Below, piece by piece: positions 21,639-40,957 of a stretch of 40,957 nt of DNA. A program made the position numbers and the translations under genes. Numbering within the stretch: position 1 is the stretch's first letter; every line of letters begins with the position of its first letter. Below the pieces are notes generated by a model. That model saw only the letters and a list, made by a program, of their open reading frames with translations, searched no databases and was not told the DNA's origin. The stretch comes from Gammaproteobacteria bacterium (lineage in GTDB: Bacteria; Pseudomonadota; Gammaproteobacteria; UBA6429; Thiohalophilaceae), in the NCBI GenBank assembly GCA_003233255.1, contig QILH01000296.1, forward strand, positions 1 through 40,957, given 5' to 3'.

Positions 21639-21691
21639 CCGTGAACGTTGTTACTTTCAGTAAGCATTTGTTTCGATAGCGAAATTTATTT

Positions 21692-21707: not shown

Positions 21708-21776
21708 CAACATAGTAGACGTGACATTGGCTTATGATTTTTAAGTCGTTGAACTACTTGTTGGGAAAAAGGTGCC

Positions 21777-23108: not shown

Positions 23109-23109
23109 A

Positions 23110-24486
23110 ATGTCAGTAGCACAAATTATGGTCGTAGAAGACGATGTTGATTTATTGGAAGCGCTTTCTGAAACATTAGAAAGTGCAGGTTATGACGTTA
23201 CCCAGGCAAAAGACGGACGTGACGCATTAAAAATTATCGAAAATAATTGTTTCGATTTGGTTGTGACGGATATACAGATGCCGAATATGGATGGTCATGT
23301 ACTATTAAAGAAAATAAAGGAGAAAACACCAGAATTACCCGTTATGTTAATGACAGCGTATGGAAGTATCCAGCAAGCTGTCGGTGCAATGCGTGATGGG
23401 GCTGTCGACTATATGGTTAAGCCATTTGAGGCCGAAGTGTTAGTGAATATGGTGTCACGTTATGCCGGGCAACCTGATGTTATGGGCGCCGACATGATTG
23501 CCGAAGATCCAAAATCAAAAGAAATGCTGTCAATAGCGAGTCGCGTTGCAAGAAGCACCGCGACTGTCATGATTACCGGTGAAAGTGGTGTTGGAAAAGA
23601 AGTGTTGGCGAAATATATCCATTCACACTCTAAGCGCAGTGAACAACCTTTTGTGGCAATTAACTGCGCGGCTATTCCTGAGAATATGTTGGAAGCAACA
23701 TTATTTGGGTATGAGAAAGGAGCTTATACCGGCGCCTATAAAGCATGCCCAGGTAAGTTTGAGCAGGCCCAGAGTGGTACTTTGCTACTTGATGAAATAA
23801 CAGAAATGGATAAAGGTTTACAGGCAAAGCTATTAAGGGTTTTACAGGAGCGTGAAGTTGAGCGACTTGGAGGAACTAAAGTAATTGAACTTGATGTCAG
23901 GGTGATTGCCACATCAAACCGGAATGTGCATGAGTATGTTGCGGAAGGAAAATTTCGTGAAGATTTATTTTATCGATTGAATGTCTTTCCCATCAATATT
24001 CATTCCCTGGTTGATCGCCAAGGTGACACGATTGCGTTAACAAAAAGAATAATTGAAAAAACCTGTAAGCAGTTAAATGTTGCGATTCCTGACTTGTTGG
24101 AGTGTGCCAAGAAAAAATTATTATCTCATACATGGCCGGGAAATGTGCGCGAGCTAGATAATGTTGTACAGCGCGCATTGGTTTTATTTGGCAAAGACGT
24201 CTTGACTGAAGACGACATCCATTTTGAATTAGGCGATCCAGTTTCAAGGCCAGCTGGCTTGCTGCATAACGCCTCTGTTTCGTTTGAATCCAGGGGTGAA
24301 AGTTTAAATAGTGAAGTTAAACAAAAAGAGTGGAATGTCATTGTAACGACTATAGCTGAAGTTAATGGTAGTCGCAAAAAAGCGGCAGAGAAGTTGGGGA
24401 TAAGCCAGCGCACGCTACGATATAAACTCGCAAAAATGCGCGAAGCTGGAGTAAGTATTCCAGGTCGTTCAGCAGAAATGTACTGA
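23110..24486 (+). CDS. fleR: Sigma54-dependent response regulator FleR/FlrC
   Basis: The ATG at 23110 (MSVAQIMVVEDD) lies 1 nt after the fleS stop and has an AGAGAGG RBS. REC (DLVVTDIQMPNMDG), AAA+ (GESGVGKE, EKGAYTGA), HTH (AAEKLGISQRTLRYKL). Confidence 0.9.
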   Translation: MSVAQIMVVEDDVDLLEALSETLESAGYDVTQAKDGRDALKIIENNCFDLVVTDIQMPNMDGHVLLKKIKEKTPELPVMLMTAYGSIQQAVGAMRDGAVDYMVKPFEAEVLVNMVSRYAGQPDVMGADMIAEDPKSKEMLSIASRVARSTATVMITGESGVGKEVLAKYIHSHSKRSEQPFVAINCAAIPENMLEATLFGYEKGAYTGAYKACPGKFEQAQSGTLLLDEITEMDKGLQAKLLRVLQEREVERLGGTKVIELDVRVIATSNRNVHEYVAEGKFREDLFYRLNVFPINIHSLVDRQGDTIALTKRIIEKTCKQLNVAIPDLLECAKKKLLSHTWPGNVRELDNVVQRALVLFGKDVLTEDDIHFELGDPVSRPAGLLHNASVSFESRGESLNSEVKQKEWNVIVTTIAEVNGSRKKAAEKLGISQRTLRYKLAKMREAGVSIPGRSAEMY

Positions 24487-28140: not shown

Positions 28141-29571
28141 ATGCCTGCGGCCATAAAATCTTCGCTACGAGTTGCACGACAAAAAATCTGGTCTGCCTCT
28201 ATTTCAGTATGTGTAGATCGTTTAAAAGAACCCGCAGGAATTATTGTTGAAGGTAAGCTGAACCGAATGGTGGGGTTAACCTTAGAGGCGGTAGGTTGTC
28301 ATGCTGCAATCGGAGCACGCTGTCTGGTTGATAGCAATGACAATCAACCTATTGAAGCTGAGGTGGTAGGCTTTGCAAATGAACGTCTATTTTTGATGCC
28401 TACCGGTAGTATCCAGGGGCTTCGTCCAAACGCACGAGTTATTCCAACCGAACGTGTTTATGAAGCACCGGTTGGCCATGAATTGTTAGGGCGTGTTCTT
28501 GATGGCGCAGGACGTCCTTTAGACGGTAAAGGTGCATTAAATACAACGCACACACTACCTCTTACCGGTAGACAAATTAATCCCCTATCACGTCAACCCA
28601 TTGAACAACCTCTAGATGTGGGGGTGAGGAGTATTAATTCTTTGCTAACCATTGGCCGAGGTCAACGCATGGGCTTGTTTGCAGGTAGTGGCGTTGGTAA
28701 GAGTGTATTGCTCGGAATGATGACCAAGTTTACCAGTGCCGATGTGATCGTTGTTGGTCTTATCGGTGAACGTGGCCGTGAAGTAAAAGAATTTATTAAC
28801 AAGATTCTTGGCGAAGTGGGTATGTCGCGCTCGGTTGTGGTTGCCGTTCCGGCTGACTATACACCGGTCATGCGTATGCACGGTGCAGCCATGGCAACCA
28901 CGATTGCTGAATATTTCCGAGATCAGGGGCAGCATGTTTTATTGTTAATGGACTCACTAACACGTTATGCGCAGGCACAACGAGAAATAGCCTTAGCGAT
29001 AGGAGAGCCCCCTGCGACAAAAGGGTATCCACCATCAGTATTTGCTCGTTTACCCCAACTGGTTGAACGTGCTGGCAATGGTGATAAAGACGGTGGTTCA
29101 ATAACAGCAATTTATACAATTCTTACCGAAGGCCATGTGGAACAGGATCCTATTGCGGATGCGGCACGTGCAATTCTGGATGGTCATATCGTATTGTCGC
29201 GTGATCTGGCCGAAGCGGGACAATATCCGGCAATTGATATTGAGTCATCAATAAGCCGAACCATGAATGAAATCGTTAGTGACGAACAATTACAACTTGC
29301 GCAACGTTGCCGACTAATTAATTCAATTTATCGTCAAAATGAAGATCTTATTAGCGTGGGTGCCTATACTGTCGGTACCGATGCGCGTATAGATGAGGCT
29401 ATTAATTTTTATCCGACACTGCAACGATTTTTAAAGCAGGATATGAATACGGCGATGGACTGGAAAACCAGTGTTAATGGATTGCAAGCTATGTTTAATG
29501 AACATGATGTAAGACAACAGACGGCAGCTGCACAAATGAATACCGACATGATTAGTCATGGCCAAACCTAA
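28141..29571 (+). CDS. fliI: Flagellum-specific ATPase FliI
   Basis: 476 aa. Walker A GSGVGKS, Walker [12 protein letters not shown]1/T3SS ATPase core. Confidence 0.95.
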
Positions 29572-30016
29572 GTCAGAGCGTTTTAAAGTGTTGCAGAAAC
29601 TTGCCGGGCGGTATGAGAACATTGCTGCCAGGGATCTGGGCTTGTCTGTTGGGAACCTGGATGCACAAAGGTCACGTCTTATAGAATTACAGAAATTTCG
29701 CGATGAATATACGCAACAATTTAATGTGTCGGGTATGTCAGGCCTTAACAGTATGGCAATGCAATCTTTTCAGCAATTTATTAGCCAGATAGATGTTGCT
29801 ATACAACAGCAAAAACAAACGATTCTATTTGCCGAGCAAGATCACCAAAAGAAAAAACATAACTGGGAGGACAAACACAAGGAAACTCGCATTTATGACA
29901 AAACAATTGAAAAATTTGTTGTAAATGAACAAAATGATAAAGAACAATGTGATCAGGTTGAGATAGACGATTGTAATAATGCCCGATTGAAACCAAAAGA
30001 GTTCGATATCAAATAG
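29558..30016 (+). CDS. fliJ: Flagellar export chaperone/stalk protein FliJ
   Basis: 152 aa coiled-coil protein. Overlaps the fliI 3' end by 14 nt. Canonical position. Confidence 0.8.
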
Positions 30017-30063
30017 TTGTAATCTTCGTCAAGGGTTAACTTCTACTTCTTTTACCTCATTTC

Positions 30064-30079
30064 TGGCACGTCCATTGCA
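30064..30079 (+). promoter_or_regulatory. Sigma54 promoter for fliK
   Basis: TGGCAC-GTCCA-TTGCA is a perfect match to the TGGCAC-N5-TTGCA consensus, about 40 nt upstream of the fliK ATG. Confidence 0.75.
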
Positions 30080-30116
30080 AAATACCTTCAAACAAGTACT
30101 CATTTGAGGGAGTTTA

Positions 30117-31232
30117 ATGTCCGAATTTGCACCATCATTCGTTGCGGGTAGCATGCCTAAGGAAGCCGAGTTGGCCTCTGCCAGGCCATTAGCTGAAACA
30201 ACAGGTGATTCGGAAGCTTCTGATTTTGCATCACTTTTTGGTGAGATGGATTTTGCTTCAGTCAATTCAGATGATCCATCAGCTGCCCCAGCAGCGGATA
30301 GTTTAGTCTTACTTGAGGCGCTGGTAACCCGTCCCTTTAGCAATACCGACTCGCTTGCACATCCCGATAGTAAACTCTCGTTGCCTGCAAATTTACAACC
30401 CGGCGGCAACTTGTTGCCGTCATTATCTCCGTTAGTTGCCATGAGCGGCTACAGCGTTTTTGCCGATCAAGAGGGGGCTGCGGCGATTGCTTTTCAAGGT
30501 GACGGCAAAAATATTGTGGCATCAGGCACTCATTATGTAAATTCGGGTGTGCCAGCGATGCAACAAACTCAGGCTCAGTTGCGTGACATGATGCAGGCCA
30601 GTGGCATGCTCAACCAAAATGTTGACATGTTTGCGGTGCCGAAGTTGGATGCAGGTAAACAGCTCGAGATGCTTGTCAGTTTGACTCATCAGAATACAGC
30701 AATGCCAGTTGATAACCTGATCAGCTCTGGTGTGCAACCGTCAACACATGTCCTGTTGGGTCTACAGGGGGTAACAGAATTTTCGAATGTTTTAGCTGCC
30801 AGTAGTCGTAGTCCTGAAGCGATGACCGCGAGCTTAAATCAGCCCCAATGGAATCAACAGGTTGGTGATCGAATTAACTGGATGATTTCACAAGGGTTGC
30901 GACAGGCAGATATTCGATTAAATCCTCCGGAATTAGGGATGTTAGAGATACGGGTACAAATCCAGGGTGATCAGGCCAGTATTCAATTTAACACCGCACA
31001 TACAGACGTTAAGGATGCTCTGGATAATGCGATGCCGCGGTTAAGAGAAATGTTAGCCGCAAATGGCCTTAATCTGGCGGATGTAAATGTATCGCATCAG
31101 GGACATCAGCAGGCTGGGCAGGGTGACGGATCGAGGTCTGGCCACCCATCCCGATCTGAAGCTGAACAGAATGTCGAAAATCAGGCTACGAAGTCGTTTT
31201 TAAGTAATGGCATTATTGATTTTTATGCCTGA
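30117..31232 (+). CDS. fliK: Hook-length control protein FliK
   Basis: 371 aa. Low-complexity Ala/Ser/Pro N-terminal half and a C-terminal Flg_hook-type domain (IRLNPPELGMLEIRVQIQGDQASIQFNTAHTDVKDALD). Confidence 0.85.
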   Translation: MSEFAPSFVAGSMPKEAELASARPLAETTGDSEASDFASLFGEMDFASVNSDDPSAAPAADSLVLLEALVTRPFSNTDSLAHPDSKLSLPANLQPGGNLLPSLSPLVAMSGYSVFADQEGAAAIAFQGDGKNIVASGTHYVNSGVPAMQQTQAQLRDMMQASGMLNQNVDMFAVPKLDAGKQLEMLVSLTHQNTAMPVDNLISSGVQPSTHVLLGLQGVTEFSNVLAASSRSPEAMTASLNQPQWNQQVGDRINWMISQGLRQADIRLNPPELGMLEIRVQIQGDQASIQFNTAHTDVKDALDNAMPRLREMLAANGLNLADVNVSHQGHQQAGQGDGSRSGHPSRSEAEQNVENQATKSFLSNGIIDFYA

Positions 31233-31274
31233 CTAATTCGGCGTAAATAAATAATTTGTTTTAATAATAATTGC

Positions 31275-31301
31275 TAAAGCTCAAAACAGACCAGTCGATA
31301 A
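31275..31301 (+). promoter_or_regulatory. Sigma28-type promoter for the cheY-cheA-cheW-mcp... operon
   Basis: TAAAGCTC-N11-GTCGATAA against TAAAGTTT-N11-GCCGATAA (6/8 and 7/8, exact spacing), about 115 nt upstream of cheY. Confidence 0.7.
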
Positions 31302-31416
31302 GACCCTTAGAGTATGGCCGGAGTATTTCAAGCGGCTAAATACGCGCACATAGTACATGGTTATACGAATGGTAAATTTTACAAAGTAAATGGATATATT
31401 TAAGGAGTTTTAGTTC

Positions 31417-31782
31417 ATGGCTACCCGAATTCTTGCAGTTGATGATTCAACCTCAATGCGGCAAATGGTTACATTCACGCTAAAAGGTGCAGGTTATGAG
31501 GTAGAAGAAGCGGCAGATGGTCAACAGGCATTAGATATCGCAAAGGGTGGAAAATTTGATTTAGTGCTCTCGGATGTGAATATGCCCGTAATGGACGGAA
31601 TTACGCTGGTCAAAGAATTGCGATCATTATCAAATTATAAATTTACACCAATATTGATGCTAACAACGGAAAGCACCGGAGATAAAAAAACCGAAGGGAA
31701 ATCCGCTGGTGCAACTGGCTGGATAGTAAAACCATTTAATCCAGAACAATTACTTACAACGATCAAGAAGGTGCTTGGTTAA
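31417..31782 (+). CDS. cheY: Single-domain response regulator CheY
   Basis: 121 aa. ILAVDDS, LVLSDVNMPVMDG, LMLTTE, IVKPF. AAGGAG RBS. Confidence 0.9.
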   Translation: MATRILAVDDSTSMRQMVTFTLKGAGYEVEEAADGQQALDIAKGGKFDLVLSDVNMPVMDGITLVKELRSLSNYKFTPILMLTTESTGDKKTEGKSAGATGWIVKPFNPEQLLTTIKKVLG

Positions 31783-31803
31783 GCACCGTTGCCGGGGACA
31801 GGT

Positions 31804-33834
31804 ATGTCGATTGATATTTCACAGTTTTTGCAGACTTTCTTCGAAGAGAGCTTTGAAGGACTCGATATTATGGAGTCTGAATTACTGAATCTTAATGTGG
31901 GTTCGGCCGACAAAGAAACGATCAATACGATCTTTCGTGCGGCTCATTCTATCAAAGGTGGAAGCGGTACTTTTGGCTTAAGCTCGGTTGCCGATTATAC
32001 TCATGTTTTAGAAACTTTGCTTGACGAGATGCGTGATGGCAAGCGTGATGTAACACAACAATCGGTTGACGTAATGTTGCAGTCGGTTGACGTCTTACGT
32101 GAGATGTTAAATGCGCTACAGGATAATCTAGATCTGGATCATGATCGTATAGCCTCATCGCATAAGCAATTAACGGACTTGCTTTCGTCGGATACGAGTT
32201 TACCTGCAGCCAGCAGTACGGATTCGAATGCCCCTAAAGATTCAGATACGCAAGAAGAAAATTCTTCCGGCGGTTGGATTATTAATTTTAGTCCCTACCC
32301 GGATATGATGAAAACGGGTAATGATCCGGTCAGAATTATTCGTGAGTTAGAAGAGCTGGGCAATTTAACGATAGAATTGAATGATGAGAAAGTCCCTTCA
32401 CTTGATGAGCTTGAGCCAGAAAGTTGTTATTTATCGTGGAAGTTAACTCTGCACGCAGATGTTCCCATTGATGCGGTGCAGGATGTTTTTTCCTGGGTAG
32501 ACGATGAATGCGAGCTGCAAATAAATGAAATAATCATTAGTGATGGTTACTCCGGCCCAGATCGTCGCGCTCCAGAATCAACCGGGAAAGCTCGGAAAGC
32601 AGCCAGCAAAGAACAAACTTCAATTCGGGTTGGTATCGATAAAGTCGATGATCTCATTAATATGGTCGGCGAGCTGGTAATAACTCAGTCCATGTTACAT
32701 CAGTTACATGATGTTGAAGAATTTAATCAGAACACTCTGGAACGGTTACAGGATGGGCTGGCACAACTGGAACAGCATACTCGCGAATTACAGGAAAACG
32801 TTATGCGCATTCGCATGATGCCGATCAGTTTTGCGTTTCAACGTTTTCCTCGGTTGGTGCGCGACTTGAGTAATCAGTTTGGTAAAAATATTGAACTAAA
32901 ACTTACTGGCGAACAAACTGAGCTAGATAAAACGGTGATGGAGAAGATTGGTGATCCACTTGTGCATCTGGTGCGTAATTCACTGGATCACGGTATAGAA
33001 ATGCCTGAGATACGTGCTGAAGCAGGAAAACCCGAAACAGGAACCATCGAACTTAATGCCTTCCATCGCGGTGGAAATATAATTATTGAAATCAAAGATG
33101 ATGGTGCCGGGTTAAATACCCAAAAAATATTACAGAAAGCAAAAGAGAATGGTTTGGTCAAAGAGGGAGACACGATTACAACTGAACAGGTCAATGATTT
33201 GATATTCCAGCCCGGATTTTCAACTGCGGATGTGGTCAGTGATGTGTCTGGGCGTGGGGTGGGTATGGATGTGGTGCGTCGTAATATTCGTGCCCTCAAT
33301 GGTAGCGTGGAAGTCGTATCGACTCCCGGAGTGGGATCGGTCTTTACCATCCGTTTACCCATTACCCTGGCGATACTCGATGGACAACTTGTACGAGTAG
33401 GAAAAGAAACCTATGTGATCCCGTTAATTTCGATTATTGAATCATTACAGGTGAAAAATGAATTTGTTAATGCTGTCACGGGTAGCGCTGAAGTGTATAA
33501 GCTGCGTGATGAATATATTCCGATTTTGCGTTTATATGAGATATTTGATGTCGAACCGGATACAAAAAACTTATCCGCTGGGATGTTAGTTATTGTCGAA
33601 TCGGAAGGGCAAAAGCTGGCCATATTCGTCGACGAATTACTTTCTCAACAGCAAGTGGTTATTAAAAGTCTGGAAACAAACTTTAGAAAAATTGATGGTT
33701 TGTCGGGCGCTACGATATTGGGCGATGGCACAGTAGCATTAATTGCAGACATTGTTGGCGTCTATGAGTTGTACCAGAAGAAGATAGTTCCATCCGAATT
33801 AAAAGTGATTCATGATGGCGGAGTCGCAGCATGA
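31804..33834 (+). CDS. cheA: Chemotaxis histidine kinase CheA
   Basis: ATG at 31804 (MSIDISQFLQTFFEES). Hpt motif RAAHSIKGGSGTFG, dimerisation and HATPase regions (DPLVHLVRNSLDHG; DDGAGL; GRGVGMDVV), C-terminal CheW-like domain. Confidence 0.95.
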   Translation: MSIDISQFLQTFFEESFEGLDIMESELLNLNVGSADKETINTIFRAAHSIKGGSGTFGLSSVADYTHVLETLLDEMRDGKRDVTQQSVDVMLQSVDVLREMLNALQDNLDLDHDRIASSHKQLTDLLSSDTSLPAASSTDSNAPKDSDTQEENSSGGWIINFSPYPDMMKTGNDPVRIIRELEELGNLTIELNDEKVPSLDELEPESCYLSWKLTLHADVPIDAVQDVFSWVDDECELQINEIIISDGYSGPDRRAPESTGKARKAASKEQTSIRVGIDKVDDLINMVGELVITQSMLHQLHDVEEFNQNTLERLQDGLAQLEQHTRELQENVMRIRMMPISFAFQRFPRLVRDLSNQFGKNIELKLTGEQTELDKTVMEKIGDPLVHLVRNSLDHGIEMPEIRAEAGKPETGTIELNAFHRGGNIIIEIKDDGAGLNTQKILQKAKENGLVKEGDTITTEQVNDLIFQPGFSTADVVSDVSGRGVGMDVVRRNIRALNGSVEVVSTPGVGSVFTIRLPITLAILDGQLVRVGKETYVIPLISIIESLQVKNEFVNAVTGSAEVYKLRDEYIPILRLYEIFDVEPDTKNLSAGMLVIVESEGQKLAIFVDELLSQQQVVIKSLETNFRKIDGLSGATILGDGTVALIADIVGVYELYQKKIVPSELKVIHDGGVAA

Positions 33835-33844
33835 GAGGAATATT

Positions 33845-34360
33845 ATGACCGATGCAGAAATGCAAATTGACGAGCTGAAACGTGAAGACGCTGAAACGCG
33901 TGAGTTTTTAACGTTTATGTTGGCTGGCGAAGAGTACGGTGTAGATATATTGCGAGTACAGGAAATCAAGGGTTGGGATTCTGTAACTAATATCCCAAAT
34001 ACACCGGATTACATTCGTGGTGTGATTAATTTACGCGGTACGATTGTTCCTATTATCGATATGCGGCTGCGGTTTAAACTGGAGCCCCTTGAATATGGTC
34101 CAACTACGGTTGTGATTGTACTAAAAGTAGAAAAAAATTCAGAGTTCGTGCGCACTATGGGTGTCGTGGTGGATGCGGTTTCTGATGTGCATGATGTACC
34201 AGCCAACCAGGTTAAAGCCTCACCCGACTTTGGTACGACGGTAGATACCGATTTCGTAAAAGGACTTGCGACGGTGGGTGAAAAAATGGTCATTGTGTTG
34301 GATATAGATTATATGCTGAATTCGCAGGAGCTTGCGTCGCTAGATGAGGTTATGGAGTAA
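33845..34360 (+). CDS. cheW: Coupling protein CheW
   Basis: ATG at 33845 after GAGAGG gives about 171 aa. EFLTFMLAGEEYGVDILRVQEIKGW..IRGVINLRGTIVPIIDMR. Confidence 0.9.
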   Translation: MTDAEMQIDELKREDAETREFLTFMLAGEEYGVDILRVQEIKGWDSVTNIPNTPDYIRGVINLRGTIVPIIDMRLRFKLEPLEYGPTTVVIVLKVEKNSEFVRTMGVVVDAVSDVHDVPANQVKASPDFGTTVDTDFVKGLATVGEKMVIVLDIDYMLNSQELASLDEVME

Positions 34361-34465
34361 GCGTCTATGTTAGACAAAAACACAATTTTAGGTCAGCTGT
34401 TTCGTATGGGCGATAAATTTATTTATTGAAGATTATAGTATGGAGTTTTAATAGAGGTGAAGGCA

Positions 34466-37006
34466 ATGAAAGTAATTCAAGGTTTAAAGGGTTGGCAGAA
34501 GCTGGTGATTAACGTTTGCTTGCTCTCGGTGGCGCCATTAATATTATTGTATGTCGTTTCGACAGGTGCTGCCGTTTCGATTACCTCGCTTGAGGTTATA
34601 GTTGCGCTGGTGTTTTTTGTATCGTCACTTGTTGTTAGTAGCATGATGATGGGCTTCTCCAGTAGTGCTAATGTGGCGAATGCGAATCGACTCCAGTCGG
34701 CGCTTGATGCGGTAACCACTAATGTAATGGTGGCGGATGCAGACAATAACATTGTCTATATGAACGAATCAGTTACTGAAATGTTTAATTTAGCGGGCAA
34801 TGATATTCGCAAAGATTTACCTGGCTTCAATGAAAATGATTTGCTCGGTGGCAATATGGATCAGTTTCATAAAGATCCATCACATCAACAACGTTTAGTG
34901 GCTGGGTTGAAAGATACGGTTAAAGCAGAAATAAAAGTGGGTGGGCGCACTTTTGGCCTGGTTGCTACGCCTATATTTGATGAATCAAACTCACGCATCG
35001 GTACCGCCATTGAATGGGCGGATCGCACGGATGAGGTTTCGGCTAATAATACGCGCGCTATCCTTGAGGCAGAAAATGCACGCGTCAAATCTTCACTGGA
35101 TGCGGTGACCACAAACGTAATGATTGCAGATGAGAATAATGACATTGTTTACATGAATAATGCATTGGTTGGAATGTTTAATGAAGCGGGAGATGATATA
35201 CGAAAAGATTTGCCCGAGTTTAATGAGAAAAATCTGATGCATGGGAATATGGATCAGTTTCATAAAGATCCATCGCACCAACGCAAAATGGTGGGCAGTC
35301 TGAAAGAAACAATTAGCGCGGAAATAGTCGTTGGGGGGCGTACATTTTCACTGGTTGCTACCCCAGTATTCAAAGACGATGGTATTCGTTTAGGTACAGC
35401 TGTGGAATGGAAGGATCGTACTGCCGAATTAAAAGTTATTGAGAAAGAGCGACATTTAATGAACGAAGCGATGCGTGTCCAGGCAGCTTTGATGGCGGTG
35501 ACATCAAATGTGATGGTGGCCGATGTCGATAATAATATTATGTTTATGAATGAAGCATTAAAAGAAATGTTTGATGCAGCACAAAATGATATTCGCAAAG
35601 AATTACCAAATTTTGATCGCACGAAATTACTGGGCGGAAATATGGATCAATTCCATAAGAACCCCGCTCACCAGCAGCGTCTTGTTAGTGAACTCAAAAG
35701 CACAATTAAGGCCGAAATTGTAGTGGGTGGTCGAACTTTTTCACTTGTGGCCACGCCGGTATCTAATGAAGAAGGTGAACGTCTGGGTACGGCAATAGAA
35801 TGGAAAGATCGAACGGCTGAATTGCAAATCGAAAAAGAAGTTGAAAGCGTTGTAGTTTCCGCTGCTAATGGCGATTTAAGTAAACGTTTGGCTGTTGAAG
35901 GTAAGACAGGCTTCTTTAGAAATGTTAGCGAAGGAATTAATCAATTGGCGGCTGTTTGCGATGATGTAATCCAGGATACTATTCGCGTATTCGGTGCTAT
36001 GGCCGATGGCAATCTAACCGAGAAAATCAACAAAGATTATCAGGGTTCATTTGAACAATTAAAAAACGATGCTAACGCAACGATTGATAAATTTGTTCAG
36101 GTAGTCAATGAGATACAAAACACAGCAGCTTCTGTTAAGACTGGGGCATCTGAAATCTCGATTGGTAACCAGTCACTAAGTCAACGAAACGAAGAGCAGG
36201 CCTCCAGCCTTGAAGAAACGGCCTCCAGCATGGAAGAGATGACCAGTACGGTACGCCAGAATGCGGATAATGCGAATCAGGCGAACCAACTGGCAACTGC
36301 AGCTCGTAGTCAGGCTGAAAAAGGCGGTGAAGTTGTCGCTACGGCTGTGAATGCGATGAGTGAGATTAACACCAGCAGTAAAAAAGTTGCCGATATTATC
36401 AGTGTGATCGATGAAATAGCGTTCCAGACTAATCTGCTTGCTTTAAATGCTGCCGTGGAAGCGGCACGAGCAGGCGAACAAGGGCGTGGATTTGCGGTGG
36501 TGGCATCAGAAGTTAGAAATTTGGCACAACGTTCGGCGGGTGCGGCGAAAGAGATCAAGGATCTGATCGAAGAGTCAGTGAGTAAGGTTGATGAGGGTAC
36601 CGAATTAGTTAATGCCTCAGGTGAAACACTGGAAGAGATTGTCAATGGCATTAAGAAAGTGAGCAATATTGTTGCTGAGATCGCCGCGGCCAGCGCAGAA
36701 CAGGCAAGCGGTATTGATCAGGTTAATAAGGCGGTGACACAACTTGATGATATGACGCAACAAAATGCGGCGTTAGTAGAAGAGGCGGCTGCGGCTAGCG
36801 AGGCGATGCAGGAACAGTCGGAAGGTCTATCGGACTTAATGACCTTCTTTTCTACGGGCACTGATAGTGATCCAGGTGTTGTCAACGCGGTACCGAAAGT
36901 TGATGTGGTGAAACCCACACACCGCCAGCCCGTAAAGGTTGCTGCTGCAGGAGGTCAGTCAAAACCTAAAGCTATTCCTGATGATGAAGAATGGGAAGAA
37001 TTTTAA
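34466..37006 (+). CDS. Aer2-like methyl-accepting chemotaxis protein. Domains: TM hairpin, three tandem PAS (haem-type) domains, di-HAMP-like region, MA signalling domain, C-terminal EWEEF pentapeptide
   Basis: Two N-terminal hydrophobic segments. Three 131-aa repeats, each containing NMDQFHK(D/N)P(S/A)HQ and (I/V)EW(A/K)DRT. GDLSKRL and GNLTEKI HAMP-like segments. MA hairpin [38 protein letters not shown]. The ATG at 34466 is preferred over the tracked GTG at 34457. Confidence 0.85.
34685..35836 (+). repeat. Three in-frame tandem repeats of 393 nt (the PAS modules of the MCP)
   Basis: The motif AATATGGATCA recurs at 34853, 35246 and 35639, an exact 393-nt period. Copies 1 and 2 share a 29-nt identical run (aatatggatcagtttcataaagatccatc). 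The copies are otherwise diverged. Confidence 0.85.
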
Positions 37007-37106
37007 GGACAATTTATTATCAGTGGTTGATTTATAGTAATTGAGTCGTCCTGAATGGCGTAATACTCTAAATCTATTCTTTCGATTATATGGTTATTAA
37101 TAATAG

Positions 37107-37877
37107 ATGAGGCAAAGAATGGTGCGCCTGGTTTCTGTGGTCAATCAAAAAGGTGGAGTAGGTAAAACCACCACAGTTGCGAATCTTTCGCATATGCTGG
37201 CCTTAAGGGGCAATAAAGTAGCAGCAATTGATTTTGATCCGCAGGGCAGTTTAACCGTGAGCCTGGGTAAAAATTCGCGCAGTTTATCCGGTATGGATGA
37301 AGTGTTGTTAGAAGGTGCAGGAATTGATGAAGTCATGCACGAAGTCCGAGATAATCTTCAACTGGTTGCATGTGGGCCTCAGCTAGCGGCCTGTGAACAA
37401 AAACTGGAAAACACCTCAGCGGTGGCTAAACGTTTACGTAAAACTTTAAAAAACCTGGTTGACTATGATTATGTCTTACTGGATTGTCCACCGTCTTCTG
37501 GTTTCTTAGTCGTTAGTGCCTTATATGCAACTGAAGAAATATTAATACCGGTAGCGGGTGATTTCCTTGCATTACATGGAATGTCACACTTAATGGGTAC
37601 CCTGGCTCAATTCGAATCATCCTTGAAACTTAAACATAAACGCTGGATCGTGGTTACGCGTTTCCATCCCCGTCGGCGTCTTTCTCAGGGTGTAATTGAT
37701 AATCTGGTTGAACATTTCCCTGCTACGGTTTTAAAGACGCCGATTCGAGAAACTTCAGCATTAGCTGAAGGCCCGAGCTTTGGTTTGACCATAAGTGAAT
37801 ATCGAAATAAGAGTAACGGTTCGGCTGATTATGAAAAATTGGCTGTGGATTTTTGTAAAGGTAGAACAATACAATGA
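37107..37877 (+). CDS. Orphan ParA/MinD-family (deviant Walker A) ATPase, analogous by context to ParC/PpfA
   Basis: VVNQKGGVGKTTT (KGGxxGKT deviant Walker A), DFDPQGSL, VLLDCPPS. 256 aa, or 252 aa from the ATG at 37119, which has a GAGG RBS. No parB-like gene is adjacent. The stop overlaps the next ATG (ATGA). Confidence 0.85.
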   Translation: MRQRMVRLVSVVNQKGGVGKTTTVANLSHMLALRGNKVAAIDFDPQGSLTVSLGKNSRSLSGMDEVLLEGAGIDEVMHEVRDNLQLVACGPQLAACEQKLENTSAVAKRLRKTLKNLVDYDYVLLDCPPSSGFLVVSALYATEEILIPVAGDFLALHGMSHLMGTLAQFESSLKLKHKRWIVVTRFHPRRRLSQGVIDNLVEHFPATVLKTPIRETSALAEGPSFGLTISEYRNKSNGSADYEKLAVDFCKGRTIQ

Positions 37878-38791
37878 CAAAACAAAAAAAGAATATTATC
37901 GGTCATGACCCATTAGCCTGGATTTCTATTGATGACGAAGATGAAGTTTCTGAAGGAAAAAAATCATTAGGAGCTAATTCGAAGCAACAAACTGCGTCAA
38001 ACTCTGAAGCGCATCCATTTGGCATTGATGTTGGTGCCTTTTTACTTGGGTATGGGCTTATTCAGGATAATTTAACTGATATTGTATCTGATTTTTATAA
38101 GACATTATTTTTAACCCATTCAGAAGTTAAGCTCCTGTTTGAGAATTCAGATACGGAAGAACAACAACAAAAGCTGGCTAGAGCAATTTCATTGTTGGCT
38201 GATAACATCAATGATGTTGATAAATTGCTTACAGTTTTATCTGGTTTAGGAGAACGCCATCAACAATACGGTGCAGTTACCGAGCACTTTAATGCGGTAA
38301 ACGTTACCTTATTGTCGACCATAAAGACACATATCGGCCGAAAATGGACGAAGAAAATCTCTGCGAGCTGGGAAGTTGTTTTAGACAGAGCGGCAGAAGC
38401 TATGTTATCCGCCTATACAGATGAGTCAGAATTATCTCCAAGCGATGCAGAACCTGAGTCAACTGAGCCAGTAGAAGTAATTAATGACCAAAATAATGAT
38501 ACGGAACAGGCCAGTAATGAGGAGGGAGTGCTGTACCTGGCCGCATCACAGGATATTTCAACCGTCGAGGAATTGCTGGATAGAATAAAATCTGGCATTG
38601 ATGTTGGTCTGGTTAATATTAATATATCAAATGTTACGCGCATTGATGCGTCTTGTTTGCAGATATTATATTTACTTTTTCGCGATGCGGATATATATGG
38701 ATACGAAACAAAAATTAAAGGCTCATCGGAAGCGTTTGATCGATCTGTGCATTTGTTGGGTATGAGTAATGTATTAAAAGTGGCCGTATAA
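37874..38791 (+). CDS. Fusion protein: Lys-rich N-terminal peptide, VHb-like globin domain, acidic linker, STAS domain
   Basis: Residues about 60-180 align by eye with Vitreoscilla-type haemoglobin: DFYKTLFLTHSEVKLLF against TFYKNLFAKHPEVRPLF; EQQQKLA against EQPKALA; LGERH (F8 His, codon 38258-38260); W..V.....A. The C-terminal 90 aa are SpoIIAA/STAS-like (VNINISNVTRIDASCLQILY...IKGSSEAFDRSVHLLGM). Confidence 0.7.
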   Translation: MTKQKKNIIGHDPLAWISIDDEDEVSEGKKSLGANSKQQTASNSEAHPFGIDVGAFLLGYGLIQDNLTDIVSDFYKTLFLTHSEVKLLFENSDTEEQQQKLARAISLLADNINDVDKLLTVLSGLGERHQQYGAVTEHFNAVNVTLLSTIKTHIGRKWTKKISASWEVVLDRAAEAMLSAYTDESELSPSDAEPESTEPVEVINDQNNDTEQASNEEGVLYLAASQDISTVEELLDRIKSGIDVGLVNINISNVTRIDASCLQILYLLFRDADIYGYETKIKGSSEAFDRSVHLLGMSNVLKVAV

Positions 38792-39658
38792 ATGAAAGCA
38801 TTATCGACAAAAACAGAAGAAGCATTTAAAAAAAATCGTGAATTTGAGTTTAATGAGAGAGATTTTAAATTCATTGTTAATTTGGTAGGTGAGCGTACGG
38901 GCATTGTATTATCTGAGACCAAACGCGAAATGGTTTACAGCCGATTAACACGACGTATACGCGAACTTGGAATAAAGGACTTTACTACATATTGCAACAT
39001 GTTGCGTGACGGGGATCCTAATGAATTAATTAACTTTACAAATGCCTTGACCACAAATTTGACGTCTTTTTTTCGCGAACCTCATCACTTTGAATATCTG
39101 GCAAATACGGTTCTACCTGCTCTGGCGTCGACTAAAAAACAGCGACAGTTACGAATCTGGTCGGCAGGATGCTCTTCCGGAGAAGAGCCTTATACCATCG
39201 CCATGACGGTGCGCGAAGTTTTTCCAGAAAATTCTGGTTGGGATATAAAGATCATGGCCACGGATCTTGACTCAAATATGGTCGACAGGGCGCAGGCAGG
39301 AATCTACGTAGATGAAAGGGTAACCGGAATAGATAAACGGCGCCTAAAACGTTGGTTTGTTAAAGGCAAGGGGCAGAATTCAGGAAAAGTTAAAATAAAA
39401 CCAGAACTCCAGCAACTCATCACGTTTAAACAGTTAAATCTACTCCATGATTGGCCCATGCGAGAAGCCTTTGACGTTATTTTTTGTCGTAATGTTGTTA
39501 TCTATTTTAATAAAGATACACAGAGGGTTTTATTTTCCCGTTACTCAGATGTTATTGCTGACCATGGCCATTTGTTTATTGGCCATTCTGAGTCACTGAA
39601 CAAAGTAAGTGATGACTTTAATTTAATCGGCAAGACAATATATCAGAAGATCAGCTGA
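38792..39658 (+). CDS. cheR: Chemotaxis methyltransferase CheR (operon copy, CheR2-like)
   Basis: 288 aa. TTNLTSFFREPHHF, RIWSAGCSSGEEPYTI, VIFCRNVVIYF. The ATG directly follows the upstream stop (TAAATG). Confidence 0.9.
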   Translation: MKALSTKTEEAFKKNREFEFNERDFKFIVNLVGERTGIVLSETKREMVYSRLTRRIRELGIKDFTTYCNMLRDGDPNELINFTNALTTNLTSFFREPHHFEYLANTVLPALASTKKQRQLRIWSAGCSSGEEPYTIAMTVREVFPENSGWDIKIMATDLDSNMVDRAQAGIYVDERVTGIDKRRLKRWFVKGKGQNSGKVKIKPELQQLITFKQLNLLHDWPMREAFDVIFCRNVVIYFNKDTQRVLFSRYSDVIADHGHLFIGHSESLNKVSDDFNLIGKTIYQKIS

Positions 39659-40320
39659 TGGTTGCAGTAAACAGAGAAATAGATGAACGAAATCATCCTA
39701 AACCGATCTGTATAAGTGGTTTTGAGAATATCAACCGTTACTGGGACAGGCGCAATAATATTCACGCTGCAAAAATACTCCCAGGGGAATTTTATGTTAC
39801 AAAATTTAATGAGGCGGTTGTTACCGTATTGGGATCCTGTGTTTCTGCCTGCATTCGCGATCGAGTAAAACATATTGGCGGTATGAATCATTTTATGTTA
39901 CCGGCAGGTAACGAAGATAATCTTGAAGAGTTAAACAAAGCAGGAAATGCAGCACGCTATGGGAATTTCGCGATGGAACAACTAATTAATACTATATTAA
40001 GCAACGGAGGAAACCGTGAGCACCTTGAAGTCAAGTTATTTGGTGGCGGTAAGGTTCTAGGAGGTATGGATCAAATTCTTATCGGGGATAAAAATATTGC
40101 GTTCATACGCGGTTATGTGATTCTGGAAGGTTTGAGTGTGGTGGCACAGGATCTTGGTGACGTCTATCCAAGGAAGGTCATGTATTTTCCTAACACAGGG
40201 AAGGTCTGGCTTAAAAAACTTCACAAAGTGGATAATAAAACGATTGCCAGTCGTGAAAAACGTTACAAAGTCGAAATTCAGCAACAACCTGTTGAAAGTG
40301 ATATTGAGTTATTTGATTAA
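39658..40320 (+). CDS. cheD: Chemoreceptor glutamine deamidase CheD
   Basis: 220 aa. [14 protein letters not shown] (catalytic Cys region), [16 protein letters not shown]. The start overlaps the cheR stop (TGATG). Confidence 0.9.
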
Positions 40321-40325
40321 TCACC

Positions 40326-40957
40326 ATGGCTAAAATAAAAGTTGTAATTGTAGATGACTCAGCTCTGGTTAGACAGATATTAACCGAGATACTAAATTCG
40401 GATCCCGCTATTGAAGTGGTTGGTCATGCGCAGGATCCTATTATTGCACGAGACAAAATAAAATTACTCAATCCAGATGTGATTACCCTCGATGTTGAAA
40501 TGCCAAAGATGGATGGGGTGACTTTCCTGCGTAATCTAATGCGGCTGCGTCCAATGCCGGTTGTGATGATTTCATCGCTTACTGAGAAAGGGGCCGATAT
40601 AACCTTGCAGGCTATGGAAATCGGTGCGGTTGATTTTATTGCCAAACCCAGGATCGATGTTCAGGAAGGACTTGATGAGTATAAAGATGAGATCATTGCG
40701 AAAGTAAAAATGGCCGCTAAGGCAAAAGTCCGAGCCTACAATGATACTCCAATGAGAAAGATGAATATCGATCCTAAACTTAATGCTGATGCGGTGTTAA
40801 GTAGACGATCAAATAAACATTTTAAAACAACCGATAAGCTGATCGCGATAGGGGCATCTACCGGAGGCACGGAGGCGATTCGTGATGTACTTGTGTCGAT
40901 GCCACCGGATGCACCTGGCATCGTAATCAGCCAGCATATCCCGGAGGCCTTCAGTGC
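40326..40957 (+). CDS. cheB: Chemotaxis methylesterase/deamidase CheB, N-terminal about 210 aa (runs off the window end)
   Basis: Not in the ORF track because there is no stop in the window. [17 protein letters not shown]...[12 protein letters not shown]...FIAKP is the REC domain. It continues with ..[32 protein letters not shown], the esterase domain with its active-site Ser motif. Confidence 0.9.

What the first reader, a model, noticed from the sequence alone, without database searches (positions are those of the whole stretch)
38015..38416. The globin domain looks like a classical 3-on-3 bacterial haemoglobin (VHb/flavohaemoglobin family), not a sensor-type globin
Aligned by eye against Vitreoscilla haemoglobin from memory, the domain keeps these features:
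- The B-helix FYK.LF..H.EV..LF motif (Tyr B10 = Y75).
- The E-helix EQ.K(A)LA motif (Gln E7 near Q97-Q99).
- The proximal His in LGERH (H129, codon 38258-38260).
- The H-helix Trp.

Known globin-coupled sensors (HemAT, and RsbR-type globin-STAS stressosome proteins) are generally described as using the sensor-globin lineage. A VHb-like globin wired to a STAS output and embedded in a che operon would be an unusual recruitment. It predicts real haem binding with an O2/NO-reactive distal pocket (Tyr/Gln).
Basis: partly seen in the sequence, partly recalled or inferred. Interest (0 to 1): 0.75.

Follow-up and report, generated by a model that had tools for sequence, protein, structure and literature searches.

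The report
Haemoglobin-type globin adaptor in chemotaxis operon
A chemotaxis operon of an uncultured marine gammaproteobacterium encodes a small protein whose haem-binding domain is of the classical haemoglobin/flavohaemoglobin type rather than the "sensor globin" type. Comparison with related genomes suggests it links an oxygen-sensing receptor array to a ParA-type positioning ATPase.

Summary
Window 37874-38791 (+) encodes a 305-aa protein. Residues 48-181 are a 3-on-3 globin of the F/M (flavohaemoglobin-like) lineage, not the sensor (S) lineage.

- **Lineage:** Pfam Globin scores 48.8 bits and Protoglobin does not hit. A profile comparison gives 99.7% probability against F references and 21.8% against S references. 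The sensor references split off in 100/100 bootstraps.
- **Structure and pocket:** The AlphaFold model superposes on Hell's Gate globin I at TM 0.92 and 0.9 Å. Phe CD1, Tyr B10, Gln E7, Lys E10, Leu E11 and His F8 are invariant in the nine close family members.
- **Closest relatives:** These are HGbI/HGbRL, not VHb.
- **STAS:** It is probably not a phospho-switch "output", because the canonical phospho-Ser position is Ala259.
- **N-terminal peptide:** A basic N-terminal peptide (MTKxKKxxIGxDPLAWI) marks whichever gene follows the ParA-like ATPase in 16 related loci. It is absent in the three loci without that ATPase.
- **Module shuffling:** In relatives the same globin type is fused to Aer2-like PAS receptors or inserted in CheA.

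Best reading: a haem-bearing, ParP/TlpT-like adaptor of an Aer2-type chemosensory array. Haem binding and all interactions are untested. I rate it a new variant of known kinds, found only in uncultured gammaproteobacteria.

The parts
37874..38791 (+). Globin-STAS gene (305 aa plus stop). Its ATG overlaps the ParA-like stop (ATGA), and its stop codon is followed immediately by the cheR ATG.
   Evidence: sequence
37874..37933 (+). N-terminal peptide, residues 1-20 (MTKQKKNIIGHDPLAWISID). It is basic and then hydrophobic, is predicted disordered, and is conserved. Putative ParA-partner peptide.
   Evidence: Invariant M1, K5, I9, G10, D12, P13, W16, I17; pLDDT <50 for residues 1-11; it heads whichever gene follows the ParA-like gene in related loci.
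37934..38014 (+). Acidic/polar low-complexity linker, residues 21-47.
   Evidence: Variable in length and sequence; pLDDT <50.
38015..38416 (+). F/M-lineage 3-on-3 globin domain, residues 48-181. Predicted helices: A/B 53-81, C 83-89, E 94-110, F 115-131, G 136-157, H 160-179. No D helix.
38096..38098 (+). Tyr75 (B10), distal pocket.
   Evidence: Invariant in the close family; aligned with Tyr B10 of all F references.
38138..38140 (+). Phe89 (CD1).
38162..38176 (+). E helix Q97-Q-Q-K100-L101: Gln E7, Lys E10, Leu E11.
   Evidence: Alignment to HGbI and HGbRL and column table. Lys E10 is the haem-coordinating residue in closed HGbRL (PMC4476040).
38258..38260 (+). His129 (F8), proximal haem ligand.
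   Evidence: Invariant; aligned with His F8 of all nine reference globins.
38369..38371 (+). Trp166 (H helix).
   Evidence: Invariant in all 22 globin-STAS proteins and all five F references; absent in S references.
38417..38515 (+). Acidic interdomain linker, residues 182-214.
   Evidence: Variable; pLDDT <50 for residues 185-215.
38516..38788 (+). STAS domain, residues 215-305, with QDIS and RID-A-S-CLQIL motifs.
   Evidence: Pfam STAS_2 is below the cut-off for this protein alone, but 17/17 family members match. The family profile hits TM1442, MlaB and RsbV. pLDDT 84-93.
38645..38653 (+). D258-A259-S260. The position of the phosphorylated Ser of SpoIIAA/TM1442 is Ala here.
   Evidence: Alignment; profile alignment to TM1442.
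37107..37877 (+). ParA/MinD-family ATPase gene (KGGVGKT deviant Walker A), translationally coupled to the globin-STAS gene.
   Evidence: Pfam AAA_31, CbiA, ParA, MipZ; NCBIfam.
34457..37006 (+). Aer2-like chemoreceptor: two N-terminal hydrophobic segments, three PAS repeats, HAMP, MCP signalling domain, C-terminal EWEEF.
   Evidence: best NCBIfam model is aerotaxis transducer Aer2, 707 bits.
31417..34360 (+). cheY (31417-31782), cheA (31789-33834) and cheW (33812-34360) of the same cluster.
38792..40320 (+). cheR (38792-39658) and cheD (39658-40320). cheB and fliA follow in relatives.

Best explanation
The gene encodes a three-module accessory protein of an Aer2-type (F7-like) chemosensory array.

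- **Module 1, residues 1-20.** A short basic, disordered N-terminal peptide. I infer that it contacts the co-translated ParA/MinD-family ATPase, in the way the N-termini of ParP, TlpT, ParB, MinE, McdB and PomX contact theirs.
- **Module 2, residues 48-181.** A haem-binding 3-on-3 globin of the flavohaemoglobin-like (F/M) lineage, HGbI/HGbRL subgroup. It has a Tyr B10 / Gln E7 / Lys E10 distal pocket that should bind O2, and also NO and CO, tightly.
- **Module 3, residues 215-305.** A non-phosphorylatable STAS domain. I infer that it docks the protein onto the receptor/CheA/CheW array.

The proposed working is that the protein tethers the Aer2 array to the ParA-like positioning system. It also gives the array a second haem site, chemically different from the PAS-haem sites. 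The ligand or redox state of that site would alter the STAS-array or peptide-ATPase contact.

**Shown in silico:** globin lineage, intact haem pocket, fold, operon structure, module shuffling, and co-occurrence of the peptide with the ATPase.
**Inferred:** haem binding, every protein-protein contact, and the direction of signalling.
For: **Lineage and pocket.**
- Pfam Globin 48.8 bits and no Protoglobin hit.
- phmmer gives 30-63 bits to F references and 0-17 bits to S references.
- hhalign gives 99.7% probability, E 2e-25, against F references and 21.8%, E 1e-3, against S references.
- S references split off in 100/100 bootstraps.
- The AlphaFold globin has pLDDT >90. Foldseek's top hit is HGbI 3s1i, TM 0.92, 0.9 Å, with no sensor globin in the top 50.
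- The residue signature F-Y-F-F-Q-K-L-H is identical to HGbI and HGbRL.

**Part of the array.**
- The order cheY-cheA-cheW-aer2-parA-globinSTAS-cheR-cheD-cheB is conserved down to 44% identity.
- The same globin clade is fused to the N-terminus of Aer2-like PAS-MCP receptors. In L016 it is inserted into CheA.

**Peptide and ATPase.**
- There is a 4-nt ATGA overlap with the ParA-like gene.
- The motif heads the gene after the ParA-like gene in the window and 15 further distinct loci. That gene can be globin-STAS, a globin-less Lys-rich-linker-STAS protein, or a globin-PAS-MCP receptor.
- Both motif and ATPase are absent in L020, L021 and L018.
[quoted passage not shown] ParP and TlpT are the precedents (PMC5706961).

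**STAS is not a phospho-switch.** Ala259 occupies the SpoIIAA Ser58 position. The canonical D-S-S STAS proteins in L020 and L021 sit beside REC-PP2C genes.
Against: - Nothing is experimental. Haem incorporation is inferred from conservation and a model that carries no cofactor.
- The motif also has a hydrophobic DPLAW core, which is not typical of described activating peptides. It could be a binding site for something else that merely co-occurs with the ATPase.
- The window receptor appears membrane-anchored (two hydrophobic segments, read by eye), so a nucleoid-type ParA partition role is less obvious than for soluble arrays.
- The binding partner of the STAS domain is unknown.
- Five distant globin-STAS proteins have lost His F8. 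The fold therefore has a haem-independent role at least there.
- The position of the clade inside the F lineage is unresolved (35/100 bootstraps).
- All homologues come from metagenomes or MAGs.
Confidence: 0.5

Rival explanations
1. Partner-switch output. The STAS domain acts as an anti-sigma-factor antagonist whose availability is gated by the globin. O2 or NO status would then control a sigma factor (FliA just downstream, or RpoS) as in CrsR/CrsA or HsbR/HsbA. This is essentially the first reader's "globin wired to a STAS output".
For: - Ancestral F7 clusters carry anti-sigma antagonists plus a Ser phosphatase (PMC7184735). The S. oneidensis che1 locus includes the CrsR/CrsA partner switch that controls RpoS (PMC9855816).
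- Distant relatives L020 and L021 carry STAS plus REC-SpoIIE downstream of cheB.
- fliA follows cheB in L001, L002 and L004.
- The STAS profile hits TM1442 and RsbV.
Against: - The canonical phospho-Ser position is Ala259, and Gly or Ala throughout this che-STAS subfamily. The STAS proteins next to PP2C genes are a different type with D-S-S.
- No RsbW/SpoIIAB-type kinase, PP2C or anti-sigma gene lies in the che part of the window or in the flanks of L001 and L002.
- This reading does not explain the N-terminal motif or its link to the ParA-like gene.
Confidence: 0.15
2. Local enzyme or buffer. The globin works catalytically, like other F-lineage globins, as an NO dioxygenase or O2 store tethered to the array. 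It would protect or condition the PAS-haem sites of Aer2 rather than signal.
For: - The F lineage with Tyr B10 / Gln E7 is the classic NO-dioxygenase pocket (PMC3820574, PMC6950321).
- The best NCBIfam model is NO-inducible flavohaemoprotein.
- The protein is placed beside a tri-PAS-haem receptor.
Against: - There is no reductase domain or partner gene in the cluster.
- The same globin is fused at the sensory N-terminus of receptors and inside CheA, which are positions typical of input domains.
- Orthologous-position globins that have lost His F8 are retained.
- The invariant Lys E10 suggests HGbRL-like ligand-gated hexacoordination (PMC4476040), which is a switch-like property.
Confidence: 0.15
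3. Sensor-lineage globin-coupled STAS protein. The protein would be an RsbR-like stressosome component, haem-bound as in Vibrio or haem-less as in Bacillus.
For: The overall order, globin then STAS, and the size (~300 aa) resemble Vibrio RsbR (7o0i, 306 aa).
Against: - There is no Protoglobin or RsbR_N hit.
- phmmer gives 1.4 bits to V. vulnificus RsbR, and the S profile reaches 21.8% probability.
- S references are separated in 100/100 bootstraps.
- The STAS profile does not hit 7o0i at E<=1.
- There are no rsbS, rsbT or rsbX neighbours.
- All haem residues are retained.
Confidence: 0.02

Closest known systems
Hell's Gate globins HGbI (3s1i/3ubc) and HGbRL (3wfw) of Methylacidiphilum infernorum
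   Same: - Best sequence matches (E 5e-16 and 3e-14) and best fold match (HGbI TM 0.92, 0.9 Å).
- Same subgroup features: no D helix, Tyr B10, Gln E7, Lys E10, Leu E11, His F8 (PMC4476040).
- HGbRL is also an F-type globin fused to a small regulatory domain and was proposed to be a sensor.
   Different: - HGbI is a single domain. HGbRL carries Roadblock/LC7, not STAS, and is confined to Methylacidiphilum.
- Neither is in a che operon, and neither has the N-terminal peptide.
- About 32% identity over the trimmed alignment columns.
- The domain-swapped HGbRL dimer is not what the monomer model shows (TM 0.45 to 3wfx).
Vibrio RsbR (V. brasiliensis / V. vulnificus O2-sensing stressosome, 7o0i)
   Same: A haem globin followed by STAS in a ~300-aa protein that senses O2 (PMC4976288, PMC9237108).
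   Different: - Its globin is sensor (S) lineage, whereas here it is F lineage.
- Its STAS is phosphorylated within an RsbR/S/T stressosome. Here there are no rsbS or rsbT genes, the STAS is of another subfamily with Ala at the phospho-site, and the protein is embedded in a che cluster behind a ParA-like gene.
ParP (Vibrio ParC partner) and TlpT (Rhodobacter PpfA partner)
   Same: - Both are encoded with a ParA-like ATPase in a che cluster.
- In both, an N-terminal ATPase-interaction region is joined by a flexible linker to a domain that integrates into the array (PMC5706961, PMC7993993).
- Here both formats occur among relatives: a separate adaptor (ParP-like) and a receptor carrying the peptide (TlpT-like).
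   Different: - No sequence homology was tested or expected.
- The cargo domain here is STAS (plus a globin), not a CheW-like AIF domain.
- The interaction itself is untested.
HemAT and other globin-coupled sensors
   Same: A haem globin feeds a chemotaxis pathway. Relatives of the window protein even have globin-(PAS)n-MCP receptors.
   Different: - HemAT uses a sensor-lineage globin fused directly to the MCP (16.8 bits to the window globin).
- Here the globin is F lineage and, in the window, sits on a separate STAS protein.
Anti-sigma-factor antagonists of ancestral F7 chemosensory clusters (CrsA/HsbA type)
   Same: Small STAS proteins are recurrent components of Aer2/F7 gene clusters (PMC7184735, PMC9855816). 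Relatives have a STAS gene just upstream of cheY.
   Different: - CrsA-type proteins have the D-S-S phospho-site and pair with a REC-PP2C-kinase protein.
- The window STAS has D-A-S and no such partner nearby.

Membership tests
F/M-lineage (flavohaemoglobin-like, 3-on-3) globins | Matches the classical Globin profile (PF00042) above its curated cut-off, and better than the sensor or truncated profiles. | tested here: met
   48.8 bits against a cut-off of 22; no Protoglobin or Bac_globin hit. hhalign 99.7% against F references and 21.8% against S references.
F/M-lineage (flavohaemoglobin-like, 3-on-3) globins | Full 3-on-3 helical sandwich (A, B, C, E, F, G, H). | tested here: met
   AlphaFold helices at pLDDT >90. 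TM 0.92 and 0.9 Å to HGbI; TM 0.77-0.83 to VHb, Cgb and thermoglobin.
F/M-lineage (flavohaemoglobin-like, 3-on-3) globins | His F8, Phe CD1, Tyr B10 and Gln E7 haem pocket. | tested here: met
   H129, F89, Y75 and Q97 are invariant and lie in the same columns as in the five F references.
F/M-lineage (flavohaemoglobin-like, 3-on-3) globins | Binds haem b and diatomic ligands. | not testable with these tools
   Needs expression and UV-vis spectroscopy.
Flavohaemoglobin (Hmp/FHP) | C-terminal FAD/NAD(P)H ferredoxin-reductase module. | tested here: not met
   The NCBIfam flavohaemoprotein model matches only its globin part (model positions 17-133 of 399), at 59 bits against a cut-off of 432. The C-terminus is STAS.
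Sensor (S) lineage globins / globin-coupled sensors sensu Hou and Alam | Protoglobin-type globin domain. | tested here: not met
   No PF11563 hit. 0-17 bits to HemAT, GsGCS, AfGcHK and VvRsbR. S references separate in 100/100 bootstraps.
RsbR-type stressosome proteins | RsbR-type STAS with rsbS and rsbT (and rsbX) neighbours. | tested here: not met
   No such genes in the window or in 20-kb relatives. The STAS profile does not reach 7o0i at E<=1.
STAS domain superfamily | Matches STAS profiles and has the beta-alpha STAS fold. | tested here: met
   The single protein is below the cut-off (24.1 against 29.2 bits). However, 17/17 family members hit STAS_2, best E 1e-15. The profile hits TM1442, MlaB and RsbV. 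The model shows alternating strands and helices at pLDDT 84-93.
Phospho-regulated anti-sigma antagonists (SpoIIAA/RsbV/CrsA) | Ser or Thr immediately after the conserved Asp (SpoIIAA Ser58). | tested here: not met
   D258-A259-S260. It is Gly or Ala across the subfamily, and D-S-S in the PP2C-adjacent STAS proteins of L020 and L021. The SpoIIAA sequence was recalled from memory; the TM1442 segment comes.
ParA/MinD partner (ATPase-activating/adaptor) proteins | Encoded next to the ATPase, with a short, disordered, positively charged N-terminal extension ahead of a cargo-binding domain. | tested here: met
   ATGA overlap. K3, K5 and K6; pLDDT <50. Motif and ATPase co-occur in 16 loci and are both absent in 3. 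The rule comes from PMC7993993 and PMC10241942.
ParA/MinD partner (ATPase-activating/adaptor) proteins | Binds the ATPase dimer and stimulates ATP hydrolysis. | not testable with these tools
Needs AF-Multimer or biochemistry.
Aer2-type (F7-like) chemosensory cluster | cheY-cheA-cheW-aer2(PAS-haem MCP)-cheR-cheD-cheB gene order. | tested here: met
   The best NCBIfam model for the MCP is Aer2, below its equivalog cut-off (707 against 1200 bits). The F-class of CheA was not formally assigned.

The most novel reading that the evidence does not exclude
The protein is a gas-gated cargo adaptor. O2/NO binding or the redox state of an F-type haemoglobin domain would control whether a chemosensory array is engaged by its ParA/MinD-type positioning ATPase. 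Array assembly, placement or inheritance, and not only kinase activity, would then respond to oxygen. More broadly, a previously unrecognised clade of F-lineage "globin-coupled" modules would serve Aer2/F7 arrays as interchangeable parts: on STAS adaptors, on receptors and inside CheA.
Probability: 0.15. Interest if true: 0.85.

Novelty: new variant of a known kind. Interest (0 to 1): 0.6.

Why it matters
- **Globin lineages.** Globin-based signalling in bacteria is textbook-assigned to the sensor lineage, and F-lineage globins are treated as enzymes or carriers. HGbRL is the lone putative exception. Here an F-lineage globin clade has been recruited repeatedly into one signalling machine: more than 60 of the 150 best 50%-identity clusters are linked to STAS or MCP domains. 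It offers a natural comparison of PAS-haem and globin-haem sensing within one array.
- **ParA adaptors.** The protein is a candidate third kind of ParA-to-chemoreceptor-array adaptor after ParP and TlpT. Its cargo-side domain is STAS, a domain whose role in F7 clusters is still unexplained.
- **Testability.** All proposed interactions can be tested with heterologously expressed proteins, although no cultured host is known.

Tried and rejected
1. **Sensor-globin or RsbR reading.** Rejected by the profile, pairwise, tree and fold tests.
2. **Flavohaemoglobin proper.** Rejected because there is no reductase module.
3. **Phospho-switch STAS.** Judged unlikely because Ala occupies the phospho-site.
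4. **Co-fold test of the N-peptide with the ParA-like ATPase.** I built a 13-row paired alignment of peptide, GS linker and ATPase.
5. **First bootstrap attempts.** One run timed out. One had NaN distances from an uncapped Kimura correction; its split counts were discarded and only its identity figures are used. It was redone.
6. **Position inside the F lineage.** It could not be resolved. A split that separates all che-linked globins from all references has only 35/100 support.
7. **Genome-collection scan.** It found only distant relatives (<=38% identity), all in MAGs. The source organism of the window was not identified.
8. **Literature.** Six full-text searches (bear on this) found no description of an F-type globin-STAS protein or a globin-Aer2 fusion. 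The nearest item is an in-silico PAS+globin MCP in Corallococcus, mentioned in PMC13401364. The library lacks most subscription papers, including Vinogradov et al. 2013 (BBA), so prior mention cannot be excluded.
9. **Short contigs.** L006, L017, L019 and L022 were uninformative for gene context.
Full report
**1. What is there**

The finding lies inside one ORF, window 37874-38791 (+), 305 aa.

The gene is packed tightly into an operon. Its ATG overlaps the stop of the upstream ParA-like gene (ATGA), and its TAA is followed directly by the cheR ATG.

The surrounding genes are as follows:

| Gene | Window coordinates |
|---|---|
| fliI, fliJ, fliK | upstream of cheY |
| cheY | 31417-31782 |
| cheA | 31789-33834 |
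| cheW | 33812-34360 |
| MCP with three PAS repeats | 34457-37006 |
| ParA/MinD-family ATPase | 37107-37877 |
| globin-STAS gene | 37874-38791 |
| cheR | 38792-39658 |
| cheD | 39658-40320 |

The rest of the window is a polar-flagellum gene cluster: CheV-like, flgE, flgI, flgK, flagellins, fliD and FleQ/S/R-like genes.

**2. Is the globin of the classical (F/M) type?**

Yes, by every test.

- **Profiles.** Pfam Globin PF00042 matches residues 73-177 at E 1.1e-12, 48.8 bits (cut-off 22). No Protoglobin, truncated-globin or RsbR_N hit appears even at E<=10. The best NCBIfam model is NO-inducible flavohaemoprotein, globin part only.
- **Solved structures, by sequence.** The order is HGbI 3s1i/3ubc (5e-16), HGbRL 3wfw (3e-14), FHP 1cqx (4e-13), VHb (7.5e-10), Cgb and thermoglobin, followed by plant and animal globins. 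No sensor globin is among the 60 listed.
- **Reference sets.** I collected true sensor-lineage sequences by querying the PDB with HemAT, which gave an exact match to 1or4, plus V. vulnificus RsbR 7o0i, AfGcHK 5ohe and GsGCS 2w31.
  - Pairwise phmmer of the window globin gives 30-63 bits to five F references and 0-17 bits to four S references. The VHb and Hmp sequences were recalled from memory; the others are copied from tool output.
  - A profile of the nine close family members aligns to the F-reference profile at 99.7% probability, E 2e-25. It aligns to the S-reference profile at 21.8%, E 1e-3.
- **Tree.** In a bootstrapped neighbour-joining analysis (53 sequences, 133 columns) the S references split from everything else in 100/100 replicates. 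The window clade is monophyletic in 97/100. Its exact position inside the F side is unresolved (35/100).
- **Structure.** AlphaFold2 with a 22-sequence alignment gives pLDDT >90 across the globin. The helices are A/B 53-81, C 83-89, E 94-110, F 115-131, G 136-157 and H 160-179, with no D helix. Foldseek against the PDB puts HGbI first (TM 0.92, rmsd 0.9 Å, 30% identity). Neuroglobins, FHP, thermoglobin, VHb and Cgb follow, with no sensor globin in the top 50.
- **Pocket residues.** F74, Y75 (B10), F79, F89 (CD1), Q97 (E7), K100 (E10), L101 (E11), H129 (F8) and W166 are invariant in the nine close proteins. They reproduce the HGbI/HGbRL signature exactly. VHb, FHP and Hmp have Ala at E10. The S references differ at CD1, E7, E10 and the H-helix Trp.
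- **Lys E10.** This residue hexacoordinates the haem in the closed form of HGbRL. The HGbI/HGbRL subgroup is defined by no D helix, Tyr B10 and Gln E7 (PMC4476040).

The nearest relatives are the Hell's Gate globins rather than VHb.

**3. How rare is it, and what are its relatives?**

The word-indexed search of 5.8 billion proteins found only eight other proteins (44-62% identity). All are globin+STAS, and all come from metagenomes or MAGs.

The exhaustive profile search found 108 clusters at E<=1e-30. Among the best 150:

- 22 are globin-STAS proteins.
- 41 have BLAST similarity to the window's Aer2-like receptor.
- Pfam confirmed globin+STAS in 10 of 10 tested.
- Pfam confirmed globin-(PAS)n-HAMP-MCPsignal in 7 of 9 tested.

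Some of these relatives also touch the Protoglobin model weakly, but Globin always scores higher.

**4. Gene context and module shuffling**

In close relatives the order fliIJK, cheY-cheA-cheW, Aer2-like MCP, ParA-like, globin-STAS, cheR-cheD-cheB, fliA is conserved. A scan of species-representative genomes returned 12 loci, all from uncultured Gammaproteobacteria (Thiotrichaceae, Thioalkalispiraceae, Chromatiales). BLAST of their ORFs against the window proteins, with translations and Pfam, shows the same parts in different combinations:

| Variant | Loci | Arrangement |
|---|---|---|
| A | window, L001-L005 | PAS-MCP, then ParA-like, then N-motif-globin-STAS |
| B | L007-L009 | ParA-like, then N-motif-globin-STAS, then globin-PAS-MCP |
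| C | L010, L012-L015 | ParA-like, then N-motif, Lys-rich linker and STAS (no globin), then globin-PAS-MCP |
| D | L011, L023/L024 | small STAS upstream of cheY; ParA-like, then N-motif-globin-PAS-MCP |
| E | L016 | STAS upstream of cheY; CheA with a globin inserted between the Hpt/P2 part and the dimerisation domain; ParA-like, then N-motif with three tandem globins |
| F | L020, L021 | no ParA-like gene; globin-STAS without the N motif, then globin-PAS-MCP, cheR-cheD-cheB, then a canonical 101-aa STAS and a REC-SpoIIE protein |

Two regularities follow.

- **The globin travels with the core of an Aer2-type array.** It is fused to the receptor, inserted in CheA, or carried on the STAS protein. 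This Rosetta-stone pattern argues that the window protein works physically with that array.
- **The N-terminal motif M-x-(K/R)-x-K-K-x-(M/I)-I-G-x-D-P-L-(A/S)-W-(I/L/M) always heads the gene immediately after the ParA-like gene, whatever that gene's domains.**
  - It is present with the ATPase in the window plus 15 distinct loci.
  - Both are absent in L020, L021 and L018.
  - I saw no discordant case.

**5. The N-terminal peptide**

Residues 1-20 are basic (K3, K5, K6) and then hydrophobic. They are predicted disordered (pLDDT <50 for residues 1-11) and are followed by a variable acidic linker.

The literature states a general rule. [quoted passage not shown] Examples are ParB, MinE, ParG, PomX, McdB and TlpT (PMC7993993, PMC10241942). 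For chemoreceptor arrays there are two formats (PMC5706961):

- ParP: an N-terminal ParC-interaction region, a linker and an array-integration domain.
- TlpT: a receptor whose own N-terminus contacts PpfA.

Both formats occur here among relatives (variants A-C and variants D-E). I therefore infer that the window protein is the ATPase's partner. This is inference from co-occurrence, gene overlap and analogy.

**6. The STAS domain**

On its own it scores below Pfam's cut-offs. The family is nevertheless clearly STAS:

- 17 of 17 members hit STAS_2.
- The family profile finds TM1442, MlaB, RsbV and SpoIIAA-like chains.
- The model is confident, at pLDDT 84-93.

Aligned to TM1442 and SpoIIAA, the residue after the conserved Asp is the phosphorylated Ser of partner-switch antagonists. 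Here it is Ala259, and it is Gly or Ala throughout this che-cluster STAS subfamily. That subfamily includes the small STAS genes upstream of cheY and the globin-less variant C proteins. In contrast, the 101-aa STAS proteins beside REC-PP2C genes in L020 and L021 have D-S-S.

Ortega et al. noted anti-sigma antagonists as components of ancestral F7 clusters (PMC7184735). In S. oneidensis the che1 locus includes the CrsR/CrsA switch that controls RpoS (PMC9855816). The window-type loci have no kinase or phosphatase gene. I therefore read this STAS as a docking module rather than a phospho-switch output. I keep the partner-switch idea as a rival, because fliA lies just downstream in relatives.

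**7. The receptor next door**

The MCP has two N-terminal hydrophobic segments (read by eye) and three near-identical PAS repeats. These carry MDQFHK(D/N)PxHQ and EW(A/K)DRT motifs. It also has a HAMP domain, the signalling domain and a C-terminal EWEEF. Its best NCBIfam model is Aer2. The V. vulnificus tri-PAS Aer2 binds haem in all three PAS domains and ends in EWEEF (PMC10107281). The array therefore probably already senses O2 through PAS-haem, and the globin would add a chemically different haem site.

**8. Mechanism and rivals**

- **Best reading (about 0.5).** A haem-bearing adaptor. The N-peptide contacts the ParA-like ATPase, the STAS domain contacts the array, and the ligand or redox state of the F-type globin modulates one of those contacts or the array output.
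- **Partner-switch output (0.15).** Weakened by Ala259 and the absence of switch enzymes.
- **Tethered NO dioxygenase or O2 buffer (0.15).** Weakened by the lack of a reductase, by the input-like positions of the globin in fused relatives, and by the retention of haem-less copies.
- **Sensor-lineage or RsbR-like protein (0.02).** Refuted.

Five distant globin-STAS proteins (P0053, P0089, P0082, P0085, P0104) have lost His F8 while keeping GRxWTK, Trp166 and the STAS motifs. The fold therefore has a scaffold role that does not need haem in those lineages. The window clade keeps the whole pocket.

**9. Novelty**

- Known STAS-linked globins are sensor lineage (PMC3287990, PMC4976288, PMC9237108).
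- Known F-lineage chimeras are flavohaemoglobins and HGbRL (PMC7475203, PMC4476040).
- A recent aerotaxis review lists only sensor-type globin receptors, plus an in-silico PAS+globin MCP from a myxobacterium (PMC13401364).
- I found no description of this architecture, but the library lacks many subscription papers.

I rate it a new variant of known kinds (haem-based chemotaxis sensing, and ParA-partner adaptors). Interest is moderate to high. Everything beyond sequence and structure classification remains inference, and there is no cultured host.

Noticed in passing
L016:6047-8659: A CheA kinase with an F-type globin (Pfam Globin, 53 bits) inserted between the Hpt/P2 part and the dimerisation domain. 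I know of no described globin-containing CheA.
   Followed up: partly
L016:9980-11482: The gene after the ParA-like gene starts with the N motif and then carries three tandem globin domains before the contig ends.
   Followed up: partly
P0010, P0011, P0012, P0016 (exhaustive search): Giant proteins made of many tandem globins of this same type. P0010 is 2461 aa with 14 matched stretches. Their origin and context are unknown.
   Followed up: no
L010:9737-10324, L012:9707-10330, L013:9638-10264, L014:9719-10330, L015:1937-2509: Globin-less partners consisting of the N motif, a 60-80-aa Lys-rich (KKKVAKKK) low-complexity linker, an acidic stretch and STAS. The linker looks like a non-specific DNA-binding tail, which would suit a nucleoid-based ParA system.
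   Followed up: partly
window 34457-37006 (+): The Aer2-like receptor has three near-identical PAS repeats (MDQFHK(D/N)PxHQ ... EW(A/K)DRT) and a C-terminal EWEEF pentapeptide like V. vulnificus Aer2. Unlike soluble Aer2 proteins, it has two N-terminal hydrophobic segments (read by eye).
   Followed up: partly
P0053, P0089, P0082, P0085, P0104 (alignment A2); loci L020, L021: Distant globin-STAS proteins have lost the proximal His F8 (Cys, Tyr, Phe or Ser instead) and often Tyr B10 or Gln E7, yet keep GRxWTK, the H-helix Trp and the STAS motifs. They are probably haem-less, by analogy with Bacillus RsbR. In the two with known context (P0082 in L020, P0104 in L021) there is no ParA-like gene and a CrsR/CrsA-like pair lies downstream.
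   Followed up: partly
window 28141-40957, and L001/L002/L004: The whole che cluster sits inside the flagellar gene cluster, between fliK and (in relatives) fliA. No cheZ was seen in the loci examined.
   Followed up: no
window 1481-2449 (+) and 20214-24486 (+): A CheV-like protein (CheW + receiver) and a FleQ / sensor kinase / sigma-54 response-regulator trio. This is typical of polar-flagellum regulation in gammaproteobacteria.
   Followed up: no
window 38413-38922 (-): A 169-aa antisense ORF overlaps the STAS-coding part and the start of cheR. Nothing suggests that it is a gene.
   Followed up: no
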